A stretch of DNA of 64,000 nt from Leucobacter sp. (GTDB taxonomy: Bacteria > Actinomycetota > Actinomycetes > Actinomycetales > Microbacteriaceae), in NCBI GenBank assembly GCA_052094845.1, contig JBQDKK010000001.1, positions 163,386 through 227,385 of the forward strand, in the 5' to 3' direction. Every line of letters begins with the position of its first letter. Position 1 is the stretch's first letter. Of this stretch, positions 2,357 through 9,868 are shown piece by piece. Position numbers and translations under genes: made by a program. The notes under the pieces were generated by a model, which had not been told where the DNA came from, made no database searches, and saw nothing but the letters and a program-made list of their open reading frames with translations.

Positions 2357-3577
2357 CTATGGGCGGTTAGCGGGACGGGGCTCGCGGTCAAGCGCGTACG
2401 CCTCCTCACCATGTACGGCCGCGTCGATCCCGCCCTCCTCGACCTCGGACGAGACGCGCAGGCCAGTCGTCGCCTTCACCACGAACGCGACGATGAGCGA
2501 CGCGGCGAACGAGTAGGCAGCCACGCCCACGACTGAGATGACTTGGACGAGCAGCAGCCCGCCGTCGCCACCGGTGAAGAGGCCGTCATCGAACGCGAAG
2601 AATCCGAGGTAGACCGTGCCGAGCACGCCCGCGACGAGGTGCAGGCCGACGACGTCGAGCGAGTCGTCGAAGCCGAGGCGAAACTTCCACTCGATCGCGA
2701 AGGCGCACGCCGCACCAGCGAGGACGCCGAGCAGCAGCGCGAGCCCGGGGGAGAGGTTTGCGGCGGCTGGCGTGATCGCTACGAGCCCGGCCACCGCGCC
2801 GGAAGCAGCGCCGATCACGCCGGGCTTCCGTGCGCGCAGCGCATCAACTGCGAGCCATCCGAGGATGCCAGCTGCGGGCGCGCCAAGCGTGTTCACAAGG
2901 ATCAGGCCAGCGGTCGCCCCGTCCGTCGCAAGGCCCGAGTTGAAACCGATCCAACCGAACCACAAGAGCGCCGCGCCAATCGTGACGAGCGGGATCGAGT
3001 GCGGCCGGTGTGCGCCCGGGGCGAAGTCCTTGCGCTTGCCGACGACGAGCGCGAGCGCGAGGGCGGCCGCCCCCGCGTTGATGTGGATCGCGGTGCCGCC
3101 GGCAAGGTCGATCACGTCTGGAGTCCCGAGCCAGGTTCCCAGCTGAGAGATCCAGCCCCCGCCCCACACCCACGCTGCGACGGGGAAGTACACGAGCGTC
3201 GCCCACAGGCCCGAGAACAGTACCCACGACCCGAGGCCGACCCGGTCGGCTATGGCGCCAGAGATGAGGGCGGTCGTGATCATCGCGAACACCGCCCCAA
3301 ACCCGACCCCAATGAACTCGCCCGGGTCGGTGTTTGCGAGCCCGAAGTCCCGTAGCGGGCTACCCGCGAACCAGCCGTCGCCGTCGCCGATGATGCTCAT
3401 GCTGTACCCGAACAGGATCCATAGAACGCCGACGACTCCCATCGCGCTCACGCTGAAGAGCATCATGTTCACGACTGAACGGACCCGCACGAGCCCGCCG
3501 TAGAAGAGCGCCAACCCCGGCGTCATGATGAGTACGAGCGCGGAGCTCGCGAGTGTCCAGACCTCTGTTGCTTCCAT
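2357..3577 (-). CDS. amtB: Ammonium transporter (Amt family)
   Basis: MTPGLALFYGG, DLAGGTAIHINAG, LLWFGWIGFNSG, DDSLDVVGLH, GIDAAVHGEEAY motifs. Confidence 0.95.
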   Translation of the reverse strand: MEATEVWTLASSALVLIMTPGLALFYGGLVRVRSVVNMMLFSVSAMGVVGVLWILFGYSMSIIGDGDGWFAGSPLRDFGLANTDPGEFIGVGFGAVFAMITTALISGAIADRVGLGSWVLFSGLWATLVYFPVAAWVWGGGWISQLGTWLGTPDVIDLAGGTAIHINAGAAALALALVVGKRKDFAPGAHRPHSIPLVTIGAALLWFGWIGFNSGLATDGATAGLILVNTLGAPAAGILGWLAVDALRARKPGVIGAASGAVAGLVAITPAAANLSPGLALLLGVLAGAACAFAIEWKFRLGFDDSLDVVGLHLVAGVLGTVYLGFFAFDDGLFTGGDGGLLLVQVISVVGVAAYSFAASLIVAFVVKATTGLRVSSEVEEGGIDAAVHGEEAYALDREPRPANRP

Positions 3578-3598
3578 AGTGTTCTCCTCTGCTCGGCT

Positions 3599-3647
3599 GC
3601 TGATGGCCGATGGTCGGCCGTTGATGGCTGATGGCTGATGGCTGATG
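3599..3647. repeat. Heptamer tandem repeat (GCTGATG)n, 7 units, upstream of amtB
   Basis: gctgatg gccgatg gtcggcc gttgatg gctgatg gctgatg gctgatg. Confidence 0.9.
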
Positions 3648-3705
3648 GCCGCGTGTCGCCTGTCGCGCCGGTGCGCTCAGGTGTTGCCCAGTCTGCGCCT
3701 TGGCG

Positions 3706-3765
3706 GTTTCGTCGCCGTTTCTCTTGTGCGACGACCTCGTCACTTCTCTGTTTCAGCGGTGTTTC
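3706..3765 (-). promoter_or_regulatory. GlnR-box array upstream of amtB
   Basis: Minus strand GAAAC-n6-GAAAC-n6-GTGAC-n6-GTCGC-n6-GAAAC-n6-GAAAC in exact 11-bp phase; matches the actinobacterial GlnR consensus gTnAc-n6-GaAAc. Confidence 0.72.
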
Positions 3766-3830
3766 GGCGGGGTGGGGCCTGCGCTGAATCTGGCGCTGCG
3801 TCCGCTCGTGTGGCTGGCGCTGGCAATCGG

Positions 3831-3927
3831 TGCTAAGGTGGTGAGGTTGCCGTTAGATCGGCCGCGGATACAGAGAGCCCAAGCACCCTGCTGAAGGCGC
3901 CGCGCAACTGGAGAAAGGGGATCACCT
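3831..3927 (+). promoter_or_regulatory. rpsO promoter (extended -10 TG-c-TAAGGT) and probable S15 autoregulatory leader RNA
   Basis: -10 at 3834-3839; ~80-nt leader with GTTGC...GCAAC and CGCGG...CCGCG pairing closing next to the RBS; S15 leaders are known at this position. Confidence 0.5.
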
Positions 3928-4197
3928 ATGTCATTGCCCACAGATGTCAAGAAGGCGATCATCGAAGAGTACGCGACCACTGCTGGTGACACCGGATCCC
4001 CCGAGGTCCAGGTAGCGCTGCTGTCGCGTCGTATCAAGGATCTGACCGAGCACCTCAAGGAGCACAAGCACGACCACCACTCGCGTCGTGGCTTGCTGCT
4101 GCTCGTTGGTCAGCGCCGCCGCCTCCTGGCGTACCTCCAGAAGACGGACATCAACCGTTACCGTGCGCTCATCGAGCGCCTCGGCCTGCGCCGCTAA
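3928..4197 (+). CDS. rpsO: 30S ribosomal protein S15
   Basis: [30 protein letters not shown]; 89 aa. Confidence 0.99.
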
Positions 4198-4271
4198 GCT
4201 CAGCGCTTCGGCACGGCCGCGAGGCCCGGTTGATCGCGTCAGTCCCTGCGGCTGATCGCCTTTGACTCTGG

Positions 4272-4301
4272 GAAGCCCCTCTCCTGCGGGAGAGGGGCTT
4301 C
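4272..4301 (+). terminator. Intrinsic terminator hairpin after rpsO
   Basis: gaagcccctctcc-tgc-gggagaggggcttc. Confidence 0.7.
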
Positions 4302-4335
4302 TCTGCGCTCTGCGCTCTGCGCTCTGCGCTCTGCG
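4301..4335. repeat. Perfect heptamer tandem repeat (CTCTGCG)x5
   Basis: Five exact units read directly. Confidence 0.95.
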
Positions 4336-4366
4336 CTCGCCCGCTCCGCTGACCCCGCCCACCATT

Positions 4367-4432
4367 CCTCCCCAAATCATCTGTTGCGCCCCAAATACCC
4401 CTCGAATTTGAGGTGGACTGGAGAAATTGGGG
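4367..4432 (-). repeat. Four-box palindromic interspersed element, copy A (orphan, inverted relative to B and C)
   Basis: Reverse complement aligns without gaps to 8202-8267 at 47/66 nt (hand count); boxes CCAATT/CAAAT...ATTTG/ATTTG. Confidence 0.8.
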
Positions 4433-4491
4433 TGGAGGGGACGGGAAAACGAGGCAGCACGCGCCCGCCTTCCGAGTTTTCGCCCCGCACT

Positions 4492-4557
4492 GACCGCACC
4501 ACCGACCCCGCCGACCGCACCGCCGACCGCACCACCGACCCCGCCGACCGCACCGCC
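4492..4557. repeat. Perfect 33-bp tandem duplication
   Basis: gaccgcaccaccgaccccgccgaccgcaccgcc x2. Confidence 0.95.
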
Positions 4558-4601
4558 CCGACCTCACGCCGGAGGCCGCCCGTGCCGGGTACTCTATGAA
4601 C

Positions 4602-5333
4602 ATGCCAAGGGGAAGCCGTCGGCCGCGCGATCGCGGCCTGTACGTCGAGATCCACATTGACGCGCCGATGGAGCGTGTCTGGGAGCTCACGCAAGACCCG
4701 CACCTCCACGCCCGCTGGGACGCCCGATTCAGCAAGATCACCCCGACAGCGGTGCGCGACAACGGGGTGCAAGAATTCGGCTACGAACTCGATCTCGGTG
4801 TGCACACGATCCGCGGCACTGGGGTATCGCTTGGCGAGAAACGCACAGAATCAGGGCAGCGGACGTCGGCACTGCTCTTCACTACCGAGGACCCGCTCTC
4901 ACCACTCGGCGACGGGCGCGGGTATTGGCGCTATGTTCCCTCGGGAAGCGGCGTGAGGTTCTTCACCGGGTACGACTACGAGCCCGGCTGGGGCGCGATC
5001 GGACGGCTACTTGACCCGATCTTTACCCGACGGCTTGTCTGGTGGCTCACGGCCTGGAGCTTCGACAGGCTCCGACTGTGGGCGGAGCAGGGTATTGAAC
5101 CCGAACGCGTCGGATGGTGGCGCGGCTGGCTCGGCGGCCCCCGGGCGAGAGCGCGAAACTGCGCGTCCCGGCCTACTTCCTCAACTCTGGGAGACGACGT
5201 TTCCCGGACACGCGGGGCGTCCCACCCAACCCGGATCATGGACAACGCACCGCCAACACTTGACGAGCTCGGTGACATCGGGGCGATCCGGCCGCGCCAA
5301 CGCCGTACGCGCAGAGAGGGAACACATGGCTGA
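4602..5333 (+). CDS. SRPBCC/START-like domain protein (YndG-like)
   Basis: LYVEIHIDAPMERVWELTQDP.LH.RWD.RF start typical of SRPBCC folds; TACTCT -10 six nt before ATG 4602 favours this start over 4596. Confidence 0.65.
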   Translation: MPRGSRRPRDRGLYVEIHIDAPMERVWELTQDPHLHARWDARFSKITPTAVRDNGVQEFGYELDLGVHTIRGTGVSLGEKRTESGQRTSALLFTTEDPLSPLGDGRGYWRYVPSGSGVRFFTGYDYEPGWGAIGRLLDPIFTRRLVWWLTAWSFDRLRLWAEQGIEPERVGWWRGWLGGPRARARNCASRPTSSTLGDDVSRTRGASHPTRIMDNAPPTLDELGDIGAIRPRQRRTRREGTHG

Positions 5334-6033
5334 CCCCCAGAATCATCAGAGCATATTTGCTCGGGCAATCGGCCCTGGGTTCGAGCGGCTGCATCCGCAG
5401 ATGCAACGCCGGTTCGGCGTCGGGGTTGGCACTGGGGCGGGGACTGGGTATGCCTGCGTCGGTCGCGGGGTGATGCGCGAGATTCGCCGTGGACCGTGGT
5501 GGGTGCGGCCGTTCCTTATGCTCGGCGCGACGCGAAACATCATGTTCCCCGAACGCGGCGCGCACGTCCCGTTCCAGATCGACAACTACGCATACATCGA
5601 CGGGTACGGGCGTGAGACAGTCACGTTTATCCGCACAATGGAGCTCGGCGGAGGGCGCCGAAGGCGATTCGACGCGACAATGATCCTCAGCGAAGCGAGC
5701 GGGAAGATCGTTGATTACTTAGGGACCCACCAGCATCTGGCTGTCGATCTGGATCTATCAGTCACCGCCGACGGGGGCCTACGACTCGAATCGGGGGAGC
5801 AACGATTCTACGAAGGGCTGATCGGGTTCCGGTTCCCCGCATCGCTCACAGGTCGCGCCTTCCTGACCGAGCACTTTGATGATGCCAAGGGCTGCTTCGT
5901 TATAGACCTTGAGGTGCGACATGAGCGGCTCGGGTTGCTCTTTGGATACCGTGGCGAGTTTACCTGCGAGTTTCCGGAGGAGGTCACAGTGCCGGGCGCC
6001 CTGAAGCCATATCGCGAGGAGCGGCGCGAGTGA
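5326..6033 (+). CDS. DUF4166 domain protein (YndH-like)
   Basis: F..LHP.MQRRF, ETVTFIR, DYLGTHQHLAVDL, LFGYRGEF; start overlaps the upstream stop (ATGGCTGA), RBS gagagg. Confidence 0.75.
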   Translation: MADPQNHQSIFARAIGPGFERLHPQMQRRFGVGVGTGAGTGYACVGRGVMREIRRGPWWVRPFLMLGATRNIMFPERGAHVPFQIDNYAYIDGYGRETVTFIRTMELGGGRRRRFDATMILSEASGKIVDYLGTHQHLAVDLDLSVTADGGLRLESGEQRFYEGLIGFRFPASLTGRAFLTEHFDDAKGCFVIDLEVRHERLGLLFGYRGEFTCEFPEEVTVPGALKPYREERRE

Positions 6034-6704
6034 CGACGGAGAAAGTCCTCACCGAGGGCAGCCCAGTCCCGGGCGGGTCTGTCTTTCTGCGTGCGCTGGG
6101 AGATGAAGCAGTAAAGCTGCACCCCGAGGTGCTTCGATACGTATCGGGTTCGGGAGTCGTCGGTCAGGCCGTCAGCCTTGACGGAGTGTTTGACGTCGCG
6201 GGCAGCCGTTTGGGTATGCTCAACTATCTCGTACGTCCCGTCGTCGGGCCAGGGCTCTTGGTCACCGCCTTTGAACGAGGGGTGGCGTTTCGTGTGGAGA
6301 ACCGACCGGGCTGGGAGCCTCGGTCGGGAGCGAGGGAGCTGGGTCTGCACGCAGAACGTGTCTTCAAATTCCGGCGAGGCGAACAGCGATTTGTCGACGT
6401 GCTGCTGGCCGGCGATGCTCCCGGAACCCTTCGGAACTTGCTCGGCGAGCGCCGCCGTGTCGAGCTAGAACTCCATTGCTCTGCAACGGACTCCGGTCGA
6501 CTCCGGCTAGAGTCGGGCCGGGCCTGGTTGCGCTTCGGCCGTTTGCGGCTGCGGTTGCCGCACCTGTTCTCAGTGCACGCCGTCGTGGAAGACGGGTATG
6601 AGGAGACCACCGGGCGCAACACGGTGGACGCGCGGGTGCGCAGCCCGCTCCTGGGCACGATCCTCGAGTACCGGGGTAGCTTCCGTCAGTCCACGGGCGT
6701 CTGA
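6030..6704 (+). CDS. Second DUF4166 domain protein
   Basis: LHPEVLRY...GVFDVAG...LG...EYRGSF, same architecture as the upstream gene; GTGA coupling. Confidence 0.7.
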   Translation: MTTEKVLTEGSPVPGGSVFLRALGDEAVKLHPEVLRYVSGSGVVGQAVSLDGVFDVAGSRLGMLNYLVRPVVGPGLLVTAFERGVAFRVENRPGWEPRSGARELGLHAERVFKFRRGEQRFVDVLLAGDAPGTLRNLLGERRRVELELHCSATDSGRLRLESGRAWLRFGRLRLRLPHLFSVHAVVEDGYEETTGRNTVDARVRSPLLGTILEYRGSFRQSTGV

Positions 6705-6769
6705 CTGGCGGGAGCCCGGGCCCGCGCCTACCAGCGGGCACTCGCACTCTGCGGCGGATCTCGCCTGGC

Positions 6770-6835
6770 CCTCGATTACGCCAAACCCAGTTGAACTTAG
6801 CCCGAAATTGAGGGCCAGCGGATGAAATGGGGTAG
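6770..6835 (+). repeat. Four-box palindromic element, copy B (upstream of AbiEi-like nuclease gene)
   Basis: GAAATTGAGGGCCAGCGGAT (6804-6823) vs GAAATTGGGGCCCAGCGGAT (8236-8255), 18/20; internal inverted arms CCTCGATT...AATTGAGG. Confidence 0.72.
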
Positions 6836-6991
6836 TGGCGGCGTGGGCCGTGTGGGCGGGTTTGAGCTGCGGGTGTTGCCTTTACGTTCTTGCTTCGTCC
6901 CCAGCTGTAAGGATGCTGCTGCTGAAGCGGATTCATCCACGATCTCCTCCCTCGCGGAGCGCGGGGGGTCGCAGGCCGTCAGACTACGTCT

Positions 6992-8053
6992 ATGTCTCCC
7001 GCACGAAATAGTCATTCAGTGGCACCGCTTCAAGCGGCCGTCGCCGCGGTGGAGCTCATCGCTGCTGAGAACAGGATCCACAATGCGCTGGCGCCGATTC
7101 TGCTCCGACGCGAGCTTGTGCGTCTGGGTGAGGCAACGGACGGCGAGCTCTCGGCGCGTGTGCGTGCGGGCGGGCTGCGACGGCTCGCACATGGAGCGTA
7201 CATCGATTCCTCGCGTTGGGAACCCATGTATCCCGAGCAACGCCTGCTTGCCGTGACGCTCGCTCACGCGAAGCGATATCGCGAGCGTGACTGGGTGTTC
7301 GCGAGAGAGTCCGCGGCGGCGCTGTGGGGCCTGCCCCTGTTTGGCTTTTCTGGTCTGCGGGTGCACGTTGCCACTCGCGAGGGAAGCCGGGGGCACAGCT
7401 CTCGGCCCGTGGCGCGACATCTAACGGAGCTCCCCGAGACAGACATCGTGGAGGCTGCTGGAGTGCGGTTCACGAGCCTTGAGCGCACCCTCCTCGATCT
7501 TGCACACGGCGCAACACCTGAGGCCGCGATTGGTGCCCTTGACGCTGGCGTTCGCCGAGTGTTTCAGGTGGAGCGGGCCGATTCGGCTTCCGCGGTCGCT
7601 GAATGGCGGGAGCGCCAGCTTGCCGAGACTAAGCGCAGCGGACGGCCGGGGGTGCGAGCGGCGCGGCAGCTGCTTCAGATCGTAGACGGCCGTGCCGAGT
7701 CGGTGCTTGAGAGTGTGAGCAAGCTGCAACTCTCACGACTCCAGGTTCCCTACGAAATACAGGTTCCCGTCCGGGCTCCCAGTGGCGCAAAGTACTGGAT
7801 GGACTTTGAACTGCTCGGGCAAGACGCCTTTGGTGAGGTGGACGGCGCATCGAAGTACTTTGACCGGAGTGCTCACAGCGCTGGAACGCCCAAGGAACGC
7901 CTGCTCGCGGAGAAACGGCGCGAGGATGAGGTGCGCGGTGTGACCGGAAAGCGCTTCGTGAGGTGGGGTGCGCAGCACATTCAGACAGCGAGGCTGTTGG
8001 GGGAGCGCTTAAGTTCGTTTGGGATAGCTGTTCCAGGCCTCGAACACTGCTGA
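6992..8053 (+). CDS. AbiEi-antitoxin-like N-terminal wHTH fused to DUF559/Vsr-like PD-(D/E)XK nuclease domain
   Basis: LRRLAHGAY, FARESAAALWGLP, TSLERTLLDLA, AESVLES, WMDF...GEVDG.SKY, EKRREDEVR, VRW. Confidence 0.8.
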   Translation: MSPARNSHSVAPLQAAVAAVELIAAENRIHNALAPILLRRELVRLGEATDGELSARVRAGGLRRLAHGAYIDSSRWEPMYPEQRLLAVTLAHAKRYRERDWVFARESAAALWGLPLFGFSGLRVHVATREGSRGHSSRPVARHLTELPETDIVEAAGVRFTSLERTLLDLAHGATPEAAIGALDAGVRRVFQVERADSASAVAEWRERQLAETKRSGRPGVRAARQLLQIVDGRAESVLESVSKLQLSRLQVPYEIQVPVRAPSGAKYWMDFELLGQDAFGEVDGASKYFDRSAHSAGTPKERLLAEKRREDEVRGVTGKRFVRWGAQHIQTARLLGERLSSFGIAVPGLEHC

Positions 8054-8110
8054 ACGCGGGCAAGGACTGGGTCCCGCGGTGCGGACGGGCCGGGGCTGAC
8101 CTCGTCCAAG

Positions 8111-8200
8111 CCGCCAGGGCGCGCCAGAGCGCGCGAGAGCGTGCAGAAGCGCGCCAAAGCACTCCAGAGCGTGCAGAAGCGCGCCAGAGCGCGCAAAAGC
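8111..8200. repeat. Degenerate 10-bp tandem array (consensus GCGCCAGAGC), 9 units, running into palindrome copy C
   Basis: ccgccagggc gcgccagagc gcgcgagagc gtgcagaagc gcgccaaagc actccagagc gtgcagaagc gcgccagagc gcgcaaaagc. Confidence 0.9.
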
Positions 8201-8201
8201 A

Positions 8202-8267
8202 CGCCAATTCTTCCAATGTCCCCCAAATGCGGCGGGAAATTGGGGCCCAGCGGATTATTTGAGGGGG
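8202..8267 (+). repeat. Four-box palindromic element, copy C (downstream of nuclease gene)
   Basis: CGCCAATT-n-CCCAAAT-n-AAATTGGGG-n-ATTTGAGG, AT-rich boxes about 18-19 nt apart; homologous to copies A and B. Confidence 0.8.
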
Positions 8268-8290
8268 TGGGGGTGGGACACTCCCGCGAA

Positions 8291-8350
8291 AACGGGCGCG
8301 AGAGGCCATGAACGGGCGCGAGAGGCCAGGAACGGGCGCGAGAGGCCAGG
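8291..8350. repeat. 20-bp tandem repeat x3
   Basis: aacgggcgcgagaggcca(t/g)g three times, followed by a partial unit. Confidence 0.95.
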
Positions 8351-8473
8351 AACAGGAACGGGCGGGAACCGCGCGACCGGGGAGGAAACGGCGGCGACGG
8401 CGGCCGCGCCCCAAACGCCGGTGGCCCCTCCCGCAAATGCGAGAGGGGCCACCGGGCTGAGAGTCTCAGATCA

Positions 8474-9868
8474 TTAGATCTTCGACGAAGCATCCTTCAG
8501 GACGCTGCGGAGGATTCCGCCGATCTCAGCGAACTCAGCCGGGCCAATGGTCAGCGGCGGAGCGAGCTGGATGACGGGGTCTCCACGGTCATCTGCGCGG
8601 CAGTACAGGCCTGCGTCCCAGAGAGCGGGCGACAGGTAGTCGCGCAGCAGGCGGTTCGACTCTGCCTCGTTGAAGGTCTCCTTGGTCGACTTGTCCTTGA
8701 CAAGCTCGATGCCGAAGAAGTAGCCCTCACCGCGGACGTCACCGACGATGTCGATGTCGAGGAGCTTCTCGAGCTCGGCGCGGAACAGCGGGCTGTTCTC
8801 GCGGACGCGGCCGTTGAGGTCCTCTTCCTCGAAGATGTCAAGGTTCTCGAGAGCCGCGGCTGCAGCAGCCGGGTGACCCGCGAAGGTGAAGCCGTGGTAG
8901 AAGGTGTTGTCCTCCGAGTTGAAGGGCTCCGACACCTTGTCCGAGACGATCATCGCACCCAGCGGGACGTAGCCCGAGGTGATGCCCTTTGCAGAGGTGA
9001 TGATGTCGGGCTCGTAGCCGAGCGCCTTCGAAGCGAAGAAATCGCCGACGCGGCCGTACGCACAGATGACCTCATCCGAGACGAGGAGCACGTCGTACTG
9101 GTCGCAGATCTCGCGAACGCGCTTGAAGTAGCCGGGGGGAGGCGGGAAGCAGCCACCCGAGTTCTGCACGGGCTCGAGGAACACGGCAGCAACGGTCTCG
9201 GGGCCCTCGAAGAGGATCGCCTCTTCGATGCGGTTTGCAGCCCACTGGCCGAATGCCTCGATGTCGTCCGAGGGAGCGCCCATCTCTTCAGCGCGGTAGA
9301 AGTTCGTGTTCGGCACGCGGTGACCACCGGGGGTCAGCGGCTCGTAGAACTTCTTCATGTCGGGGATGCCGGTGATGGCAAGGGCGCCCTGCGGGGTGCC
9401 GTGGTAGGCAACCGAACGCGAGATGACCTTGTGCTTCATCGGCTGGCCCTTGATCTTCCAGAAGTGCTTCGCCAGCTTGAATGCCGACTCAACAGCCTCG
9501 CCACCACCGGTGGTGAAGAAGACCTTGTTCATCTCGCCGGGAGCGTACGAAGCGAGGCGCTCCGACAGCTCGACGGCGGCGGGGTGAGCGTACGACCAGA
9601 TCGGCATGAAGTCGAGCTGCTTCATCTGCTTAGCAGCTGCGTCGACGATGCGCTGGCGGCCGTGGCCGGCGTTGACAACGAACAGGCCTGCAAGACCGTC
9701 GATGTACTCCTTGCCGGCGGCATCGTAAATGTGGTGGCCCTCGGCGCGGGTGATGACGGGGATGCCGTCGTTGAGTACCTTGCGGTTAGTGAAGTGCGGC
9801 CACATGTGGCGCTTGGCCGAAGCCTGCAGCGCAGCAGTGTCGACCGCAGCGGTCGGATCGAAAGACAT
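8474..9868 (-). CDS. Class III PLP aminotransferase (putrescine/omega-amine:pyruvate transaminase-like)
   Basis: YIDGLAGL, TTGGGEAVE, EPVQNSGG, DEVICAYGR, SAKGITSGY, HGFTFAGHP. Confidence 0.9.
   Translation of the reverse strand: MSFDPTAAVDTAALQASAKRHMWPHFTNRKVLNDGIPVITRAEGHHIYDAAGKEYIDGLAGLFVVNAGHGRQRIVDAAAKQMKQLDFMPIWSYAHPAAVELSERLASYAPGEMNKVFFTTGGGEAVESAFKLAKHFWKIKGQPMKHKVISRSVAYHGTPQGALAITGIPDMKKFYEPLTPGGHRVPNTNFYRAEEMGAPSDDIEAFGQWAANRIEEAILFEGPETVAAVFLEPVQNSGGCFPPPPGYFKRVREICDQYDVLLVSDEVICAYGRVGDFFASKALGYEPDIITSAKGITSGYVPLGAMIVSDKVSEPFNSEDNTFYHGFTFAGHPAAAAAALENLDIFEEEDLNGRVRENSPLFRAELEKLLDIDIVGDVRGEGYFFGIELVKDKSTKETFNEAESNRLLRDYLSPALWDAGLYCRADDRGDPVIQLAPPLTIGPAEFAEIGGILRSVLKDASSKI

What the first reader, a model, noticed from the sequence alone, without database searches (positions are those of the whole stretch)
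6770..8350. AbiEi-like/PD-(D/E)XK nuclease gene bracketed by direct copies of a 66-bp four-box palindrome: candidate REP/MITE-like element with a cognate nuclease
Seen: the 353-aa gene has an AbiEi-type wHTH and an intact-looking DUF559/Vsr-like core (WMDF...GEVDG..KY, EK.RED). The same AT-boxed imperfect palindrome lies 156 bp upstream (6770-6835) and 148 bp downstream (8202-8267) in the same orientation, sharing an 18/20 core. No adjacent nucleotidyltransferase (AbiEii) toxin is present. Known: AbiEi antitoxins bind inverted repeats at their own promoter, which does not explain a downstream copy; RAYT nucleases maintain flanking REP palindromes. Inference: this family may be a non-HUH analogue of RAYT, a site-specific binder/nuclease that maintains or spreads its own palindromes.
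Basis: partly seen in the sequence, partly recalled or inferred. Interest (0 to 1): 0.8.

Follow-up and report, generated by a model that had tools for sequence, protein, structure and literature searches.

The report
Nuclease gene framed by own palindromes
A Leucobacter gene for a DNA-binding nuclease lies between two copies of a hairpin-forming repeat that also sits at about 55 conserved places in the genome, and its relatives across the Microbacteriaceae are framed by their own versions of such repeats. This looks like an undescribed protein-repeat partnership resembling REP/RAYT systems, built on an unrelated enzyme.

Summary
The 353-aa gene (6992-8053) lies between two same-type ~90-nt four-box palindromes, with a third 2.4 kb upstream.

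The protein is an AbiEi-type DNA binder fused to a Vsr/DUF559-like PD-(D/E)XK domain. The genome has no AbiEii toxin and no RAYT.

The repeat has 55 copies in this Leucobacter genome, mostly between convergent genes.

The framing is general. An upstream/downstream repeat pair frames 63 of 80 family genes in Leucobacter, Microbacterium and Humibacter, against 0 of 300 random genes. Each gene lineage has its own palindrome sequence.

The repeat type follows the gene clade. L. komagatae-group genomes carry CCCCAAAT-box copies. A species with a 53%-identical gene carries a GAGGCAAAT-box variant at other sites, and that variant also frames its gene.

Active spreading is not shown. Copies sit at orthologous sites in sister species and change about threefold slower than synonymous sites. 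They are old, constrained and not recently mobile.

Verdict: a real, apparently undescribed palindrome-framed nuclease module that is REP/RAYT-like in layout. Recognition of the repeats by the protein is likely. Mobilisation remains unproven.

The parts
6992..8053 (+). Gene for the 353-aa AbiEi-like (wHTH plus AbiEi C-domain) / Vsr-DUF559-like PD-(D/E)XK protein
   Evidence: ORF. PADLOC AbiEi E 1.6e-11 on residues 50-204. AF2 pLDDT 93, with Foldseek matches to AbiEi 6y8q, R2 RLE and Vsr. Invariant D271, E282, G285, K288, Y289, R310. dN/dS 0.155 and 0.143 against orthologues.
6756..6851 (+). Upstream framing copy of the four-box palindrome (R1 family).
   Evidence: nhmmer 6761-6848, E 7e-9. Covariance model 42 bits, E 9e-6 per genome. 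Arms 6765-6780 / 6803-6818 are 88% complementary (I23).
8188..8283 (+). Downstream framing copy of the four-box palindrome (R1 family)
   Evidence: nhmmer 8196-8278, E 1.7e-16. Covariance model 69.6 bits.
4356..4451 (+). Third R1 copy. Together with the 6756-6851 copy it brackets the SRPBCC / DUF4166 three-gene block (4596-6704).
   Evidence: nhmmer 4358-4445, E 2.6e-21. Covariance model 83 bits. Pfam hits of the enclosed genes.
8112..8211 (.). GC-rich tandem array (10-nt period) abutting the 5' side of the downstream palindrome
   Evidence: the repeat finder family D1, 7 copies.
8291..8365 (.). Tandem array (20-nt period) abutting the 3' side of the downstream palindrome
   Evidence: the repeat finder family D3.
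8418..8455 (-). Ordinary terminator-type hairpin of the convergent aminotransferase gene (8474-9868, minus strand). It is separate from the palindrome.
   Evidence: Inverted repeat I6, 18-nt arms, 94% complementary. The same hairpin is present at the empty sites of relatives.

Best explanation
What it is. The gene is one member of a very large, unnamed actinobacterial family. The protein has an AbiEi-type DNA-binding part (winged helix plus AbiEi C-domain) fused to a Vsr/DUF559-like PD-(D/E)XK nuclease domain. Each gene is framed by an upstream and a downstream copy of its own 70-100-nt four-box palindrome.

Most likely working:
1. The winged helix reads the 8-9-nt boxes, here CCCCAAAT / ATTTGGGG. 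There are two boxes per arm, 21 nt apart. AbiEi and Rv2827c read inverted repeats at their own promoters in the same way.
2. Binding at the upstream copy represses the gene.
3. The same recognition extends to the downstream copy. In the L. komagatae group it also extends to a population of about 55 copies between genes, mostly at the 3' ends of convergent genes.

The whole is a single-copy, vertically inherited gene with a cognate repeat population. That is the layout of REPIN-RAYT systems, but with an unrelated enzyme.

Shown: the fold and conserved residues; the framing; the match between repeat type and gene lineage; the age and constraint of the scattered copies.

Inferred: that the protein binds the boxes.

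Speculative: that the nuclease domain cuts at the palindrome (as a hairpin or cruciform) and thereby copied it to new sites, at a rate too low to see between sister species.
For: Protein:
- PADLOC AbiEi, E 1.6e-11.
- Foldseek matches to AbiEi 6y8q, R2 RLE and Vsr on a pLDDT-93 model.
- Invariant acidic and lysine residues.
- dN/dS 0.14-0.16, so the gene is functional.
- 5,988 clusters (50% identity) at E <= 1e-30.

Framing:
- An up/down repeat pair of at least 50 nt occurs in 63 of 80 family loci from Leucobacter, Microbacterium and Humibacter, against 0 of 300 random genes.
- Long palindromes lie on both sides in 39 of 80 family loci, against 1 of 2445 genes.
- In one genome (G017) the palindrome occurs only twice, as the two flanks of the gene.
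- Each lineage has different boxes.

Repeat anatomy:
- 55 copies.
- 73% of stem cells pair, against 35-50% when the partner is slid. No shuffle reaches the covariation score.
- The boxes are the most conserved columns, while the spacers vary but stay complementary.

The repeat goes with the gene:
- R1-type loci number about 55 (own), 57 (gene 88% identical), 22 (61%) and 17 (53%; a variant).
- Genomes with a 44-47% gene have none.
- Genomes with an empty or decayed locus have none.
- In G041 the variant (GAGGCAAAT boxes) lies at sites that are palindrome-free in this genome (6 of 8 assessable sites). A profile of it hits both flanks of G041's own gene at E 3e-12 and 3e-11, and only one place in this genome.

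Precedent: AbiEi binds inverted repeats in its promoter, and Rv2827c binds two sets of them (PMC7319586).

No RAYT is present.
Against: - No binding or cleavage data exist.
- The scattered copies have not moved since the split from the sister species (about 52 of 54 orthologous), nor since the split from G008 (18 of 18).
- The scattered copies are under site-specific constraint: arms 90-91% identical where dS is 0.30-0.37. This fits a host function independent of the gene equally well.
- G004 is as close as G008 by RF2. It carries a different family allele yet keeps 6-7 of 16 R1 copies.
- In this genome R1 copies also bracket unrelated DNA: an SDR gene, a 9.6-kb block and the SRPBCC/DUF4166 block.
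- Another palindrome family (R4) is dispersed in G004 and G008 with no family gene beside it.
- The window's own upstream copy is the weakest member of the family (42 bits).
- The link between repeat type and gene rests on two lineages only, so it is confounded with phylogeny.
- An earlier check in this scan, on another lineage, found that the repeat did not go with the gene.
Confidence: 0.55

Rival explanations
1. Self-contained, autoregulated orphan AbiEi-nuclease, for example a fused toxin-antitoxin-like or defence gene. The upstream palindrome is the operator. The downstream one is a terminator or insulator kept similar by gene conversion. The 55 scattered copies are host elements (terminator-like or nucleoid-protein sites) that merely share ancestry with the flanks and do not depend on the protein.
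For: - AbiEi-family operators are inverted repeats, two sets of them in Rv2827c.
- Scattered copies are static and under purifying selection at each site.
- They lie mostly between convergent genes (32 of 55).
- G004 keeps some copies without the matching gene.
- Other palindrome families exist without a nearby family gene.
- R1 copies bracket unrelated genes too.
Against: - Ordinary short terminators already stand next to the palindromes.
- G·T and A·C mismatches are equally frequent on the sense strand (59/47 upstream, 47/56 downstream), so there is no sign of RNA-level selection.
- The scattered family changes type together with the gene flanks in G041, and at different sites.
- Relatives with an empty or decayed locus have no R1 copies.
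Confidence: 0.27
2. A mobile cassette. The gene and its two palindromes move as a unit, the palindromes acting as recombination ends in the manner of IS200/IS605 ends or integron attC sites. Solo palindromes are left behind by excision or by recombination between the two flanking copies.
For: - At one locus, next to the aminotransferase 3' end, relatives differ. Some carry the gene, with 42-88% identical alleles. Some carry gene fragments (G022, G050). G043 has a solo long palindrome. G021, G024 and G045 have clean empty sites with no palindrome.
- Up/down copies are up to 96% identical in some loci.
- G017 has sister genes at two loci.
- Subfamily members sit at non-syntenic sites.
- In this genome a 9.6-kb block absent from G008 is bracketed by two R1 copies with an identical 58-nt left half.
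Against: - The gene tree is largely vertical. Genes at the syntenic locus cluster (4 changes against 8.3 for shuffled labels), and orthologues of the paralogues are near-identical between species.
- No near-identical multi-copy genes were seen.
- No recombinase or transposase lies in the cassette, and no target duplication was seen at the G004 empty sites.
- The G017 sister genes have quite different palindromes.
Confidence: 0.1
3. Chance: the gene simply landed in a repeat-rich intergenic region.
For: With 55 copies in roughly 3000 intergenic regions, about 0.6 genes per genome are expected to be bracketed by chance (own estimate). An SDR gene is in fact bracketed.
Against: 63 of 80 family loci against 0 of 300 random genes have an up/down pair. 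The framing repeats differ from genome to genome and are sometimes unique to the gene.
Confidence: 0.01

Closest known systems
REPIN-RAYT systems (REP-associated tyrosine transposases; PMC3116915; 10.1101/2021.07.10.451892)
   Same: - A single-copy gene sits in the same extragenic space across species, is vertically inherited and is framed by its cognate palindromic repeats.
- A population of tens of the same repeats is scattered between genes.
- Repeat type and gene lineage match.
- Turnover is very slow.
   Different: - The enzyme is unrelated: AbiEi winged helix plus a Vsr-like PD-(D/E)XK domain, not an HUH/Y1 transposase. The genome has no PF01797.
- The repeat is a 70-100-nt four-box hairpin rather than a ~20-nt REP or a REP doublet.
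- Many family members have only the two framing copies and no population.
- Scattered copies keep private spacers and are conserved site by site, rather than tracking a master sequence.
- Dependence of the repeats on the gene is unproven.
AbiEi antitoxin of type IV AbiE toxin-antitoxin systems (S. agalactiae AbiEi, PDB 6y8q; M. tuberculosis Rv2827c; PMC7319586, PMC3985639)
   Same: The N-terminal ~200 residues match by profile and by fold. A multi-box inverted-repeat element stands upstream of the gene, like the AbiEi and Rv2827c operators.
   Different: - No AbiEii nucleotidyltransferase lies beside the gene or anywhere in the genome.
- A nuclease-fold domain is fused instead.
- A second copy of the element follows the stop codon, and dozens more are scattered.
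Vsr / DUF559 / MTES_1575 restriction-endonuclease-like PD-(D/E)XK domains
   Same: The C-terminal ~110 residues fold like Vsr, the R2 element's restriction-like endonuclease and PvuRts1I/AbaSI. They keep the D...E-x-D-G..K-Y and E-K-x-R-E-D motifs. Some homologues hit PF04480 or PF18741.
   Different: The window's protein itself is below the Pfam thresholds. Substrate and activity are unknown. No Dcm-type methylase context was looked for.
Integron gene cassettes with attC sites; IS200/IS605 ends
   Same: Genes are bounded by imperfect palindromes whose structure is better conserved than their sequence. attC also has four boxes (R'', L'', L', R'; from my own knowledge).
   Different: There are no cassette arrays, and no integrase or TnpA in or beside the unit. 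Copies are scattered singly or as doublets, and both ends carry the same palindrome. An integron integrase was not specifically searched for.

Membership tests
AbiE type IV toxin-antitoxin (AbiEi antitoxin) | Two-domain AbiEi fold (N-terminal winged helix plus C-terminal antitoxicity domain) | tested here: met
   PADLOC AbiEi models, best E 1.6e-11 on residues 50-204. Foldseek top PDB match is 6y8q, E 2e-4, probability 1.0. AbiEi_4 or AbiEi_1 in 20 of 50 homologues.
AbiE type IV toxin-antitoxin (AbiEi antitoxin) | Bicistronic partner AbiEii (DUF1814 nucleotidyltransferase toxin) | tested here: not met
   Neighbours are DUF4166, SRPBCC, an aminotransferase and an Lrp-type ORF. PF08843 has no match in the whole genome, although the control genomes respond.
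AbiE type IV toxin-antitoxin (AbiEi antitoxin) | Binds inverted repeats in its own promoter and autoregulates | not testable with these tools
   A four-box palindrome ends 156 nt before the ATG. The consensus scan found no sigma-70-like promoter. Binding needs EMSA.
Vsr / DUF559 PD-(D/E)XK nucleases | Restriction-endonuclease-like fold with conserved acidic and lysine residues | tested here: met
   Foldseek: R2 RLE probability 0.98; Vsr 1vsr/1cw0 probability 0.75, TM(target) 0.47-0.50. D271, E282, K288 are invariant and D284, E307, K308 are at least 90% conserved.
Vsr / DUF559 PD-(D/E)XK nucleases | Passes the Pfam DUF559 (PF04480) model | tested here: not met
   No Pfam family at E <= 0.1 for the window's protein. 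Only 4 of 50 homologues hit PF04480 and 5 of 50 hit PF18741.
Vsr / DUF559 PD-(D/E)XK nucleases | Endonuclease activity | not testable with these tools
   Needs an enzyme assay.
REPIN-RAYT system | Enzyme is an HUH / Y1 (IS200-like) transposase | tested here: not met
   PF01797 is absent from the genome. The protein has a different fold.
REPIN-RAYT system | Gene flanked by its cognate palindromic repeats | tested here: met
   Window copies at 6756-6851 and 8188-8283. 63 of 80 relatives against 0 of 300 controls.
REPIN-RAYT system | Population of the same repeats dispersed in extragenic space | tested here: met
   55 loci in this genome, about 57 in G049, about 22 in G008 and about 17 (variant) in G041. 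This does not hold for all family members: G017 has only the two flanks.
REPIN-RAYT system | Single copy, same extragenic space, vertical inheritance | tested here: met
   The gene lies at the same locus in 10 Leucobacter species. Genes at the syntenic locus cluster on the tree. The three paralogues in this genome belong to different subfamilies.
REPIN-RAYT system | Repeat population depends on the enzyme (decays without it) | tested here: inconclusive
   There are no R1 copies in G021 (empty locus) or G022 (gene fragment). G004 (different allele) keeps 6-7 of 16 sites. The topology of these species is not resolved, there are few independent events, and an earlier scan check elsewhere was negative.
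MITE / insertion sequence | Terminal inverted repeats with target-site duplication, and recent copy-number change | tested here: not met
   No duplication was visible at sites lacking the copy in G004. About 52 of 54 copies are shared at orthologous sites with the sister species.

The most novel reading that the evidence does not exclude
AbiEi-Vsr proteins are the replicators or keepers of their own long palindromes. The winged helix docks on the four boxes of a palindrome extruded as a hairpin or cruciform, and the Vsr-like domain nicks it. Over millions of years this seeds new copies at the 3' ends of genes. That would be a second, independently evolved class of vertically inherited 'repeat plus single-copy enzyme' replicator, a non-HUH counterpart of RAYT/REPIN. 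It would be widespread in Actinobacteria, where the family has about 6,000 clusters at 50% identity.
Probability: 0.3. Interest if true: 0.85.

Novelty: new variant of a known kind. Interest (0 to 1): 0.72.

Why it matters
- Scale. REP-type repeats are known with one kind of cognate enzyme, the RAYTs of Proteobacteria. Here an unrelated and very large actinobacterial protein family shows the same gene-inside-its-own-repeats layout. It has about 6,000 clusters at E <= 1e-30, and I found no paper on it.
- Annotation. If the protein recognises its palindromes, thousands of 'hypothetical' or 'AbiEi domain-containing' genes, and the long intergenic hairpins of Microbacteriaceae, get an explanation at once.
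- Testability. It gives a second system for asking how repeat populations persist inside genomes. It also offers a natural series of matched protein and DNA-box specificities.
- Function of the repeats. The scattered copies evolve about threefold slower than synonymous sites. This argues that they do something in the cell, which is testable in culturable Leucobacter and Microbacterium strains.

Tried and rejected
- Known RNA families: Rfam has no match on 3500-9000 at E <= 1, so this is not a known RNA.
- RAYT: none in the genome.
- RNA-level hairpin (terminator or stabiliser) selected on the sense strand: rejected as the main constraint, because G·T and A·C mismatches are balanced and ordinary terminators stand alongside.
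- 'Same palindrome around the paralogues': rejected. No R1 copy lies near C4:218766-219899 or C5:38727-39695. They have their own palindromes.
- Pre-existing palindrome as an insertion target at this locus: not supported. The empty sites in G021, G024 and G045 have none.
- Active MITE: rejected for the recent past.
- Arm-to-arm correction keeping palindromes perfect: little support. There were 183 one-sided changes against 16 double changes, of which 6 kept pairing.
- Background density of weak covariance-model hits in other genomes: could not be measured, because the tool's first-look filter drops weak hits. Replaced by the control.
- BLASTN with a concatenated query of the gene plus 55 copies: too insensitive to count repeats in four further relatives. 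It found only 4-5 of G008's roughly 20.
- R4, a second palindrome family that replaces R1 at two G004 sites: no family gene was found beside any copy.
- The search for related loci with the 50-sequence alignment failed. A 21-sequence alignment worked.
- Integron-like cassette idea: not pursued beyond noting that there are no arrays and no recombinase in the unit.
Full report
**What is at the coordinates.** The window is C1:163386-227385 of a 3.49-Mb, 66% G+C Leucobacter genome. The closest named homologue of the gene is from L. komagatae. The ORF 6992-8053 (+) encodes 353 aa. One lies at 6770-6835, 156 nt before the ATG. The other lies at 8202-8267, 148 nt after the stop. They run in the same orientation and share 18 of 20 core positions. 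The repeat finder groups them with a third copy at 4404-4441 (family D4).

**The protein.**
- Pfam and NCBIfam give nothing useful on the protein itself.
- PADLOC AbiEi models match residues 50-204 at E 1.6e-11.
- An AlphaFold model built on 50 homologues has pLDDT 93.
- Its best PDB match is the S. agalactiae AbiEi antitoxin 6y8q. The C-terminal domain matches the restriction-like endonuclease of R2 elements, PvuRts1I/AbaSI, Can2 and Vsr.
- Homologues carry AbiEi_4 (17 of 50), MTES_1575 (5), DUF559 (4) and AbiEi_1 (3).
- D271, E282, G285, K288, Y289 and R310 are invariant.
- dN/dS is 0.155 against the 88%-identical orthologue and 0.143 against the 61%-identical one, like its neighbours. The gene is functional.
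- The genome has no AbiEii and no RAYT.
- A profile search finds 5,988 clusters (50% identity) at E <= 1e-30. The family is very large and unnamed.

**The repeat in this genome.**
- An iterated nhmmer profile finds 55 loci.
- They align without gaps over 96 columns: C-rich flank, box CCCCAAAT, ~10-nt variable spacer, box CCCCAAAT, ~9-nt loop, ATTTGGGG, complementary spacer, ATTTGGGG, G-rich flank.
- For a 29-pair stem, 73% of cells pair, against 35-50% when the partner is slid. No shuffle out of 500 reaches the covariation score.
- By a crude gene call, 32 of 55 lie between convergent genes and 3 between divergent ones.
- Rfam has no match.
- The two paralogues of the gene in this genome (32-33% identity) have no R1 copy nearby. 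They do have palindromes of their own.

**The framing is a property of the gene family.**
- Homologues in other Leucobacter species, mostly at non-syntenic loci, are bracketed by pairs of 70-110-nt repeats.
- Each repeat is a long four-box palindrome, with a different sequence for each gene lineage.
- In G017 one such palindrome occurs exactly twice in 2.9 Mb, as the two flanks of the gene.
- Among 80 loci from public genomes (Leucobacter, Microbacterium, Humibacter and unnamed Actinomycetota), 71 have a significant upstream/downstream pair and 63 have one of at least 50 nt.
- The same test on 300 random genes of similar size in this genome gives 0. Long palindromes on both sides occur in 39 of 80 family loci against 1 of 2445 called genes.
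- The upstream copy typically ends 35-150 nt before the start. The downstream copy begins 0-100 nt after the stop.
- G·T and A·C mismatches are balanced on the sense strand. The constraint therefore looks like one on DNA, not on a transcript.

**History of the locus.**
- The gene lies next to the 3' end of a highly conserved aminotransferase gene.
- Ten Leucobacter species carry a family gene at this locus, 42-88% identical to the window's.
- Two species have only gene fragments.
- G021, G024 and G045 have a clean empty site holding just the two ordinary terminators and no palindrome.
- G043 has a solo long palindrome.
- On a maximum-likelihood tree the genes at this locus cluster: 4 label changes against 8.3 for shuffled labels. 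Orthologues of the other paralogues are near-identical between species. Inheritance is therefore mainly vertical. One intragenomic duplication in G017 has sister genes with quite different palindromes.

**Does the scattered repeat go with the gene?** The covariance model R1 gives these counts of loci:

| Genome | Gene at the locus | R1-type loci |
|---|---|---|
| This genome | 100% | about 55 |
| G049 | 88% identical | about 57 |
| G008 | 61% identical | about 22 |
| G041 | 53% identical | about 17, weaker |
| G004 | 42% identical allele | a few |
| Three genomes | 44-47% identical | none |
| G021 | empty locus | none |
| G022 | gene fragment | none |

- By release-factor-2 identity, G004 and G008 are equally close to this genome (98%). 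G041, G021 and G022 are all at 85-87%.
- G041 is the informative case. Its elements are near-perfect hairpins with different boxes (GAGGCAAAT / GAGCCAAAT).
- At 6 of 8 assessable sites this genome has no palindrome at the orthologous place.
- A profile of the G041 elements hits both flanks of G041's own gene (E 3e-12 and 3e-11) and only one place in this genome.
- So in two lineages the scattered repeat type matches the type that frames the resident gene, and the two populations sit at different sites.
It comes from only two lineages.

**Against recent spreading.**
- About 52 of 54 G049 copies lie at sites orthologous to copies here.
- All 18 G008 copies tested do too, although dS between these genomes is 1.4-2.3.
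- Orthologous copies are each other's best match: median 81% against 67% for the next best.
- Between this genome and G049 the arms are 90-91% identical and the loop 86%. The C- and G-rich flanks are 65-72% identical, and further flanks are not alignable. Neighbouring genes have dS 0.30-0.37.
- The palindromes therefore change about threefold slower than synonymous sites, and they keep their private spacers.
- This is site-by-site purifying selection, not homogenisation and not recent transposition.
- Double changes that keep pairing number 6, against 0-2 in the shifted controls.

**G004: an ambiguous case.** At 16 sites that hold R1 in both this genome and G008, G004 keeps 6-7 copies, has none at 7, and at 2 holds a different palindrome family, R4. 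R4 has about 12 loci in G004, about 7 in G008 and none here. No family gene lies beside any copy. This fits either decay after the allele change or later gains in the other branch.

**R1 copies also bracket unrelated DNA here.** Examples are an SDR gene (C4:82383-83198), a 9.6-kb block absent from G008 whose two bounding copies share an identical 58-nt left half, and the SRPBCC/DUF4166 block in the window.

**Reading.** The module (gene plus its own two palindromes) is real and general. The most economical mechanism is that the AbiEi-type winged helix reads the boxes. AbiEi reads the inverted repeats in its promoter, and Rv2827c reads two sets of them (PMC7319586). This would give autoregulation at the upstream copy and a shared recognition element at the downstream and scattered copies. 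The layout, single-copy vertical inheritance, matching of repeat type to gene lineage and very slow dynamics parallel REPIN-RAYT systems (PMC3116915; 10.1101/2021.07.10.451892). The enzyme is unrelated. That the nuclease domain copies or maintains the repeats remains a hypothesis, to which I give about 0.3.

**Literature and earlier notes.** Searches found no description of this family or layout. Earlier notes of this scan describe the same layout in other actinobacterial genomes and reach the same analogy. One of them records a negative check of 'the repeat goes with the gene' elsewhere. I treated these as leads and tested the claims on this lineage.

**Limits.**
- Gene calls were crude.
- Species relationships rest on one or two proteins.
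- Counts in other genomes depend on the tool's pre-filters.

Noticed in passing
window 4296-4335, 4492-4557, 8112-8211, 8291-8365: Each palindrome copy is abutted by short GC-rich tandem arrays with periods of 7, 9-12, 10 and 20 nt. Similar arrays fill the empty or decayed site in relatives (G021, G022, G024). The C-rich 5' and G-rich 3' flanks of many copies contain GGGG-N-GGGG runs, e.g. own-genome C10:100679, that could form G-quadruplexes.
   Followed up: no
own genome C5:173152-182877 (outside the window): Two R1 copies share an identical 58-nt left half but have different right arms. They bracket a 9.6-kb block (surface proteins, methyltransferase, ABC transporter, Crp-like regulator) that is absent from G008, where a single weak copy stands. 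This looks like a rearrangement or insertion with a breakpoint in the palindrome centre.
   Followed up: partly
window 4356-6851: The three-gene block 4596-6704 (SRPBCC/Polyketide_cyc2, an unnamed ORF, DUF4166) is itself bracketed by R1 copies. It is missing at this locus in G001, G021 and others. The interval between the conserved left neighbour and the aminotransferase therefore reads as two repeat-bounded units.
   Followed up: partly
own genome C4:82208-83383 (outside the window): An ordinary short-chain dehydrogenase gene (C4:82383-83198) is also bracketed by two R1 copies. Within this one genome, bracketing is therefore not unique to the nuclease gene.
   Followed up: partly
G004:C1:3591236-3591300 and 2099299-2099354 (loci L229, L232): A different long palindrome family (GTTGGCAGTTGTGGTCG...CGACCACAACTGCCAAC) occupies two intergenic sites that hold R1 copies in this genome and G008. 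It has about 12 loci in G004, about 7 in G008 and none here, and no family gene lies beside any copy. This suggests turnover of palindrome families at the same intergenic 'slots'.
   Followed up: partly
own genome C5:38727-39695 and its flanks: The 55 'R1' copies seem to include a sub-type with CACNTCATTTTC / ACACNTC boxes, about 13 members. A profile of that sub-type weakly hits both flanks of the C5 paralogue (E 5e-6 and 3e-5 within 2.6 kb). This hints at two gene-repeat pairs in one genome.
   Followed up: partly
own genome, all contigs: A simple scan finds 198 long palindromes (26-nt arms, at least 20 pairs). Only 22 of them overlap R1 copies, so other long-hairpin families or single hairpins remain unexamined.
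   Followed up: no
own genome C4:218763-219905; G001:C3:75544-76518: The C4 paralogue is read through an in-frame TAG, and the G001 gene at the syntenic locus through an in-frame TGA. These are possible pseudogenes within the family.
   Followed up: no
G043 locus L042, positions ~4815-4885: At the otherwise gene-less syntenic site, G043 has a solo 66-nt near-perfect palindrome (GTAGGAGATCTTGATCCACGCGGG...) between the two ordinary terminators. It may be a remnant of a lost cassette.
   Followed up: no
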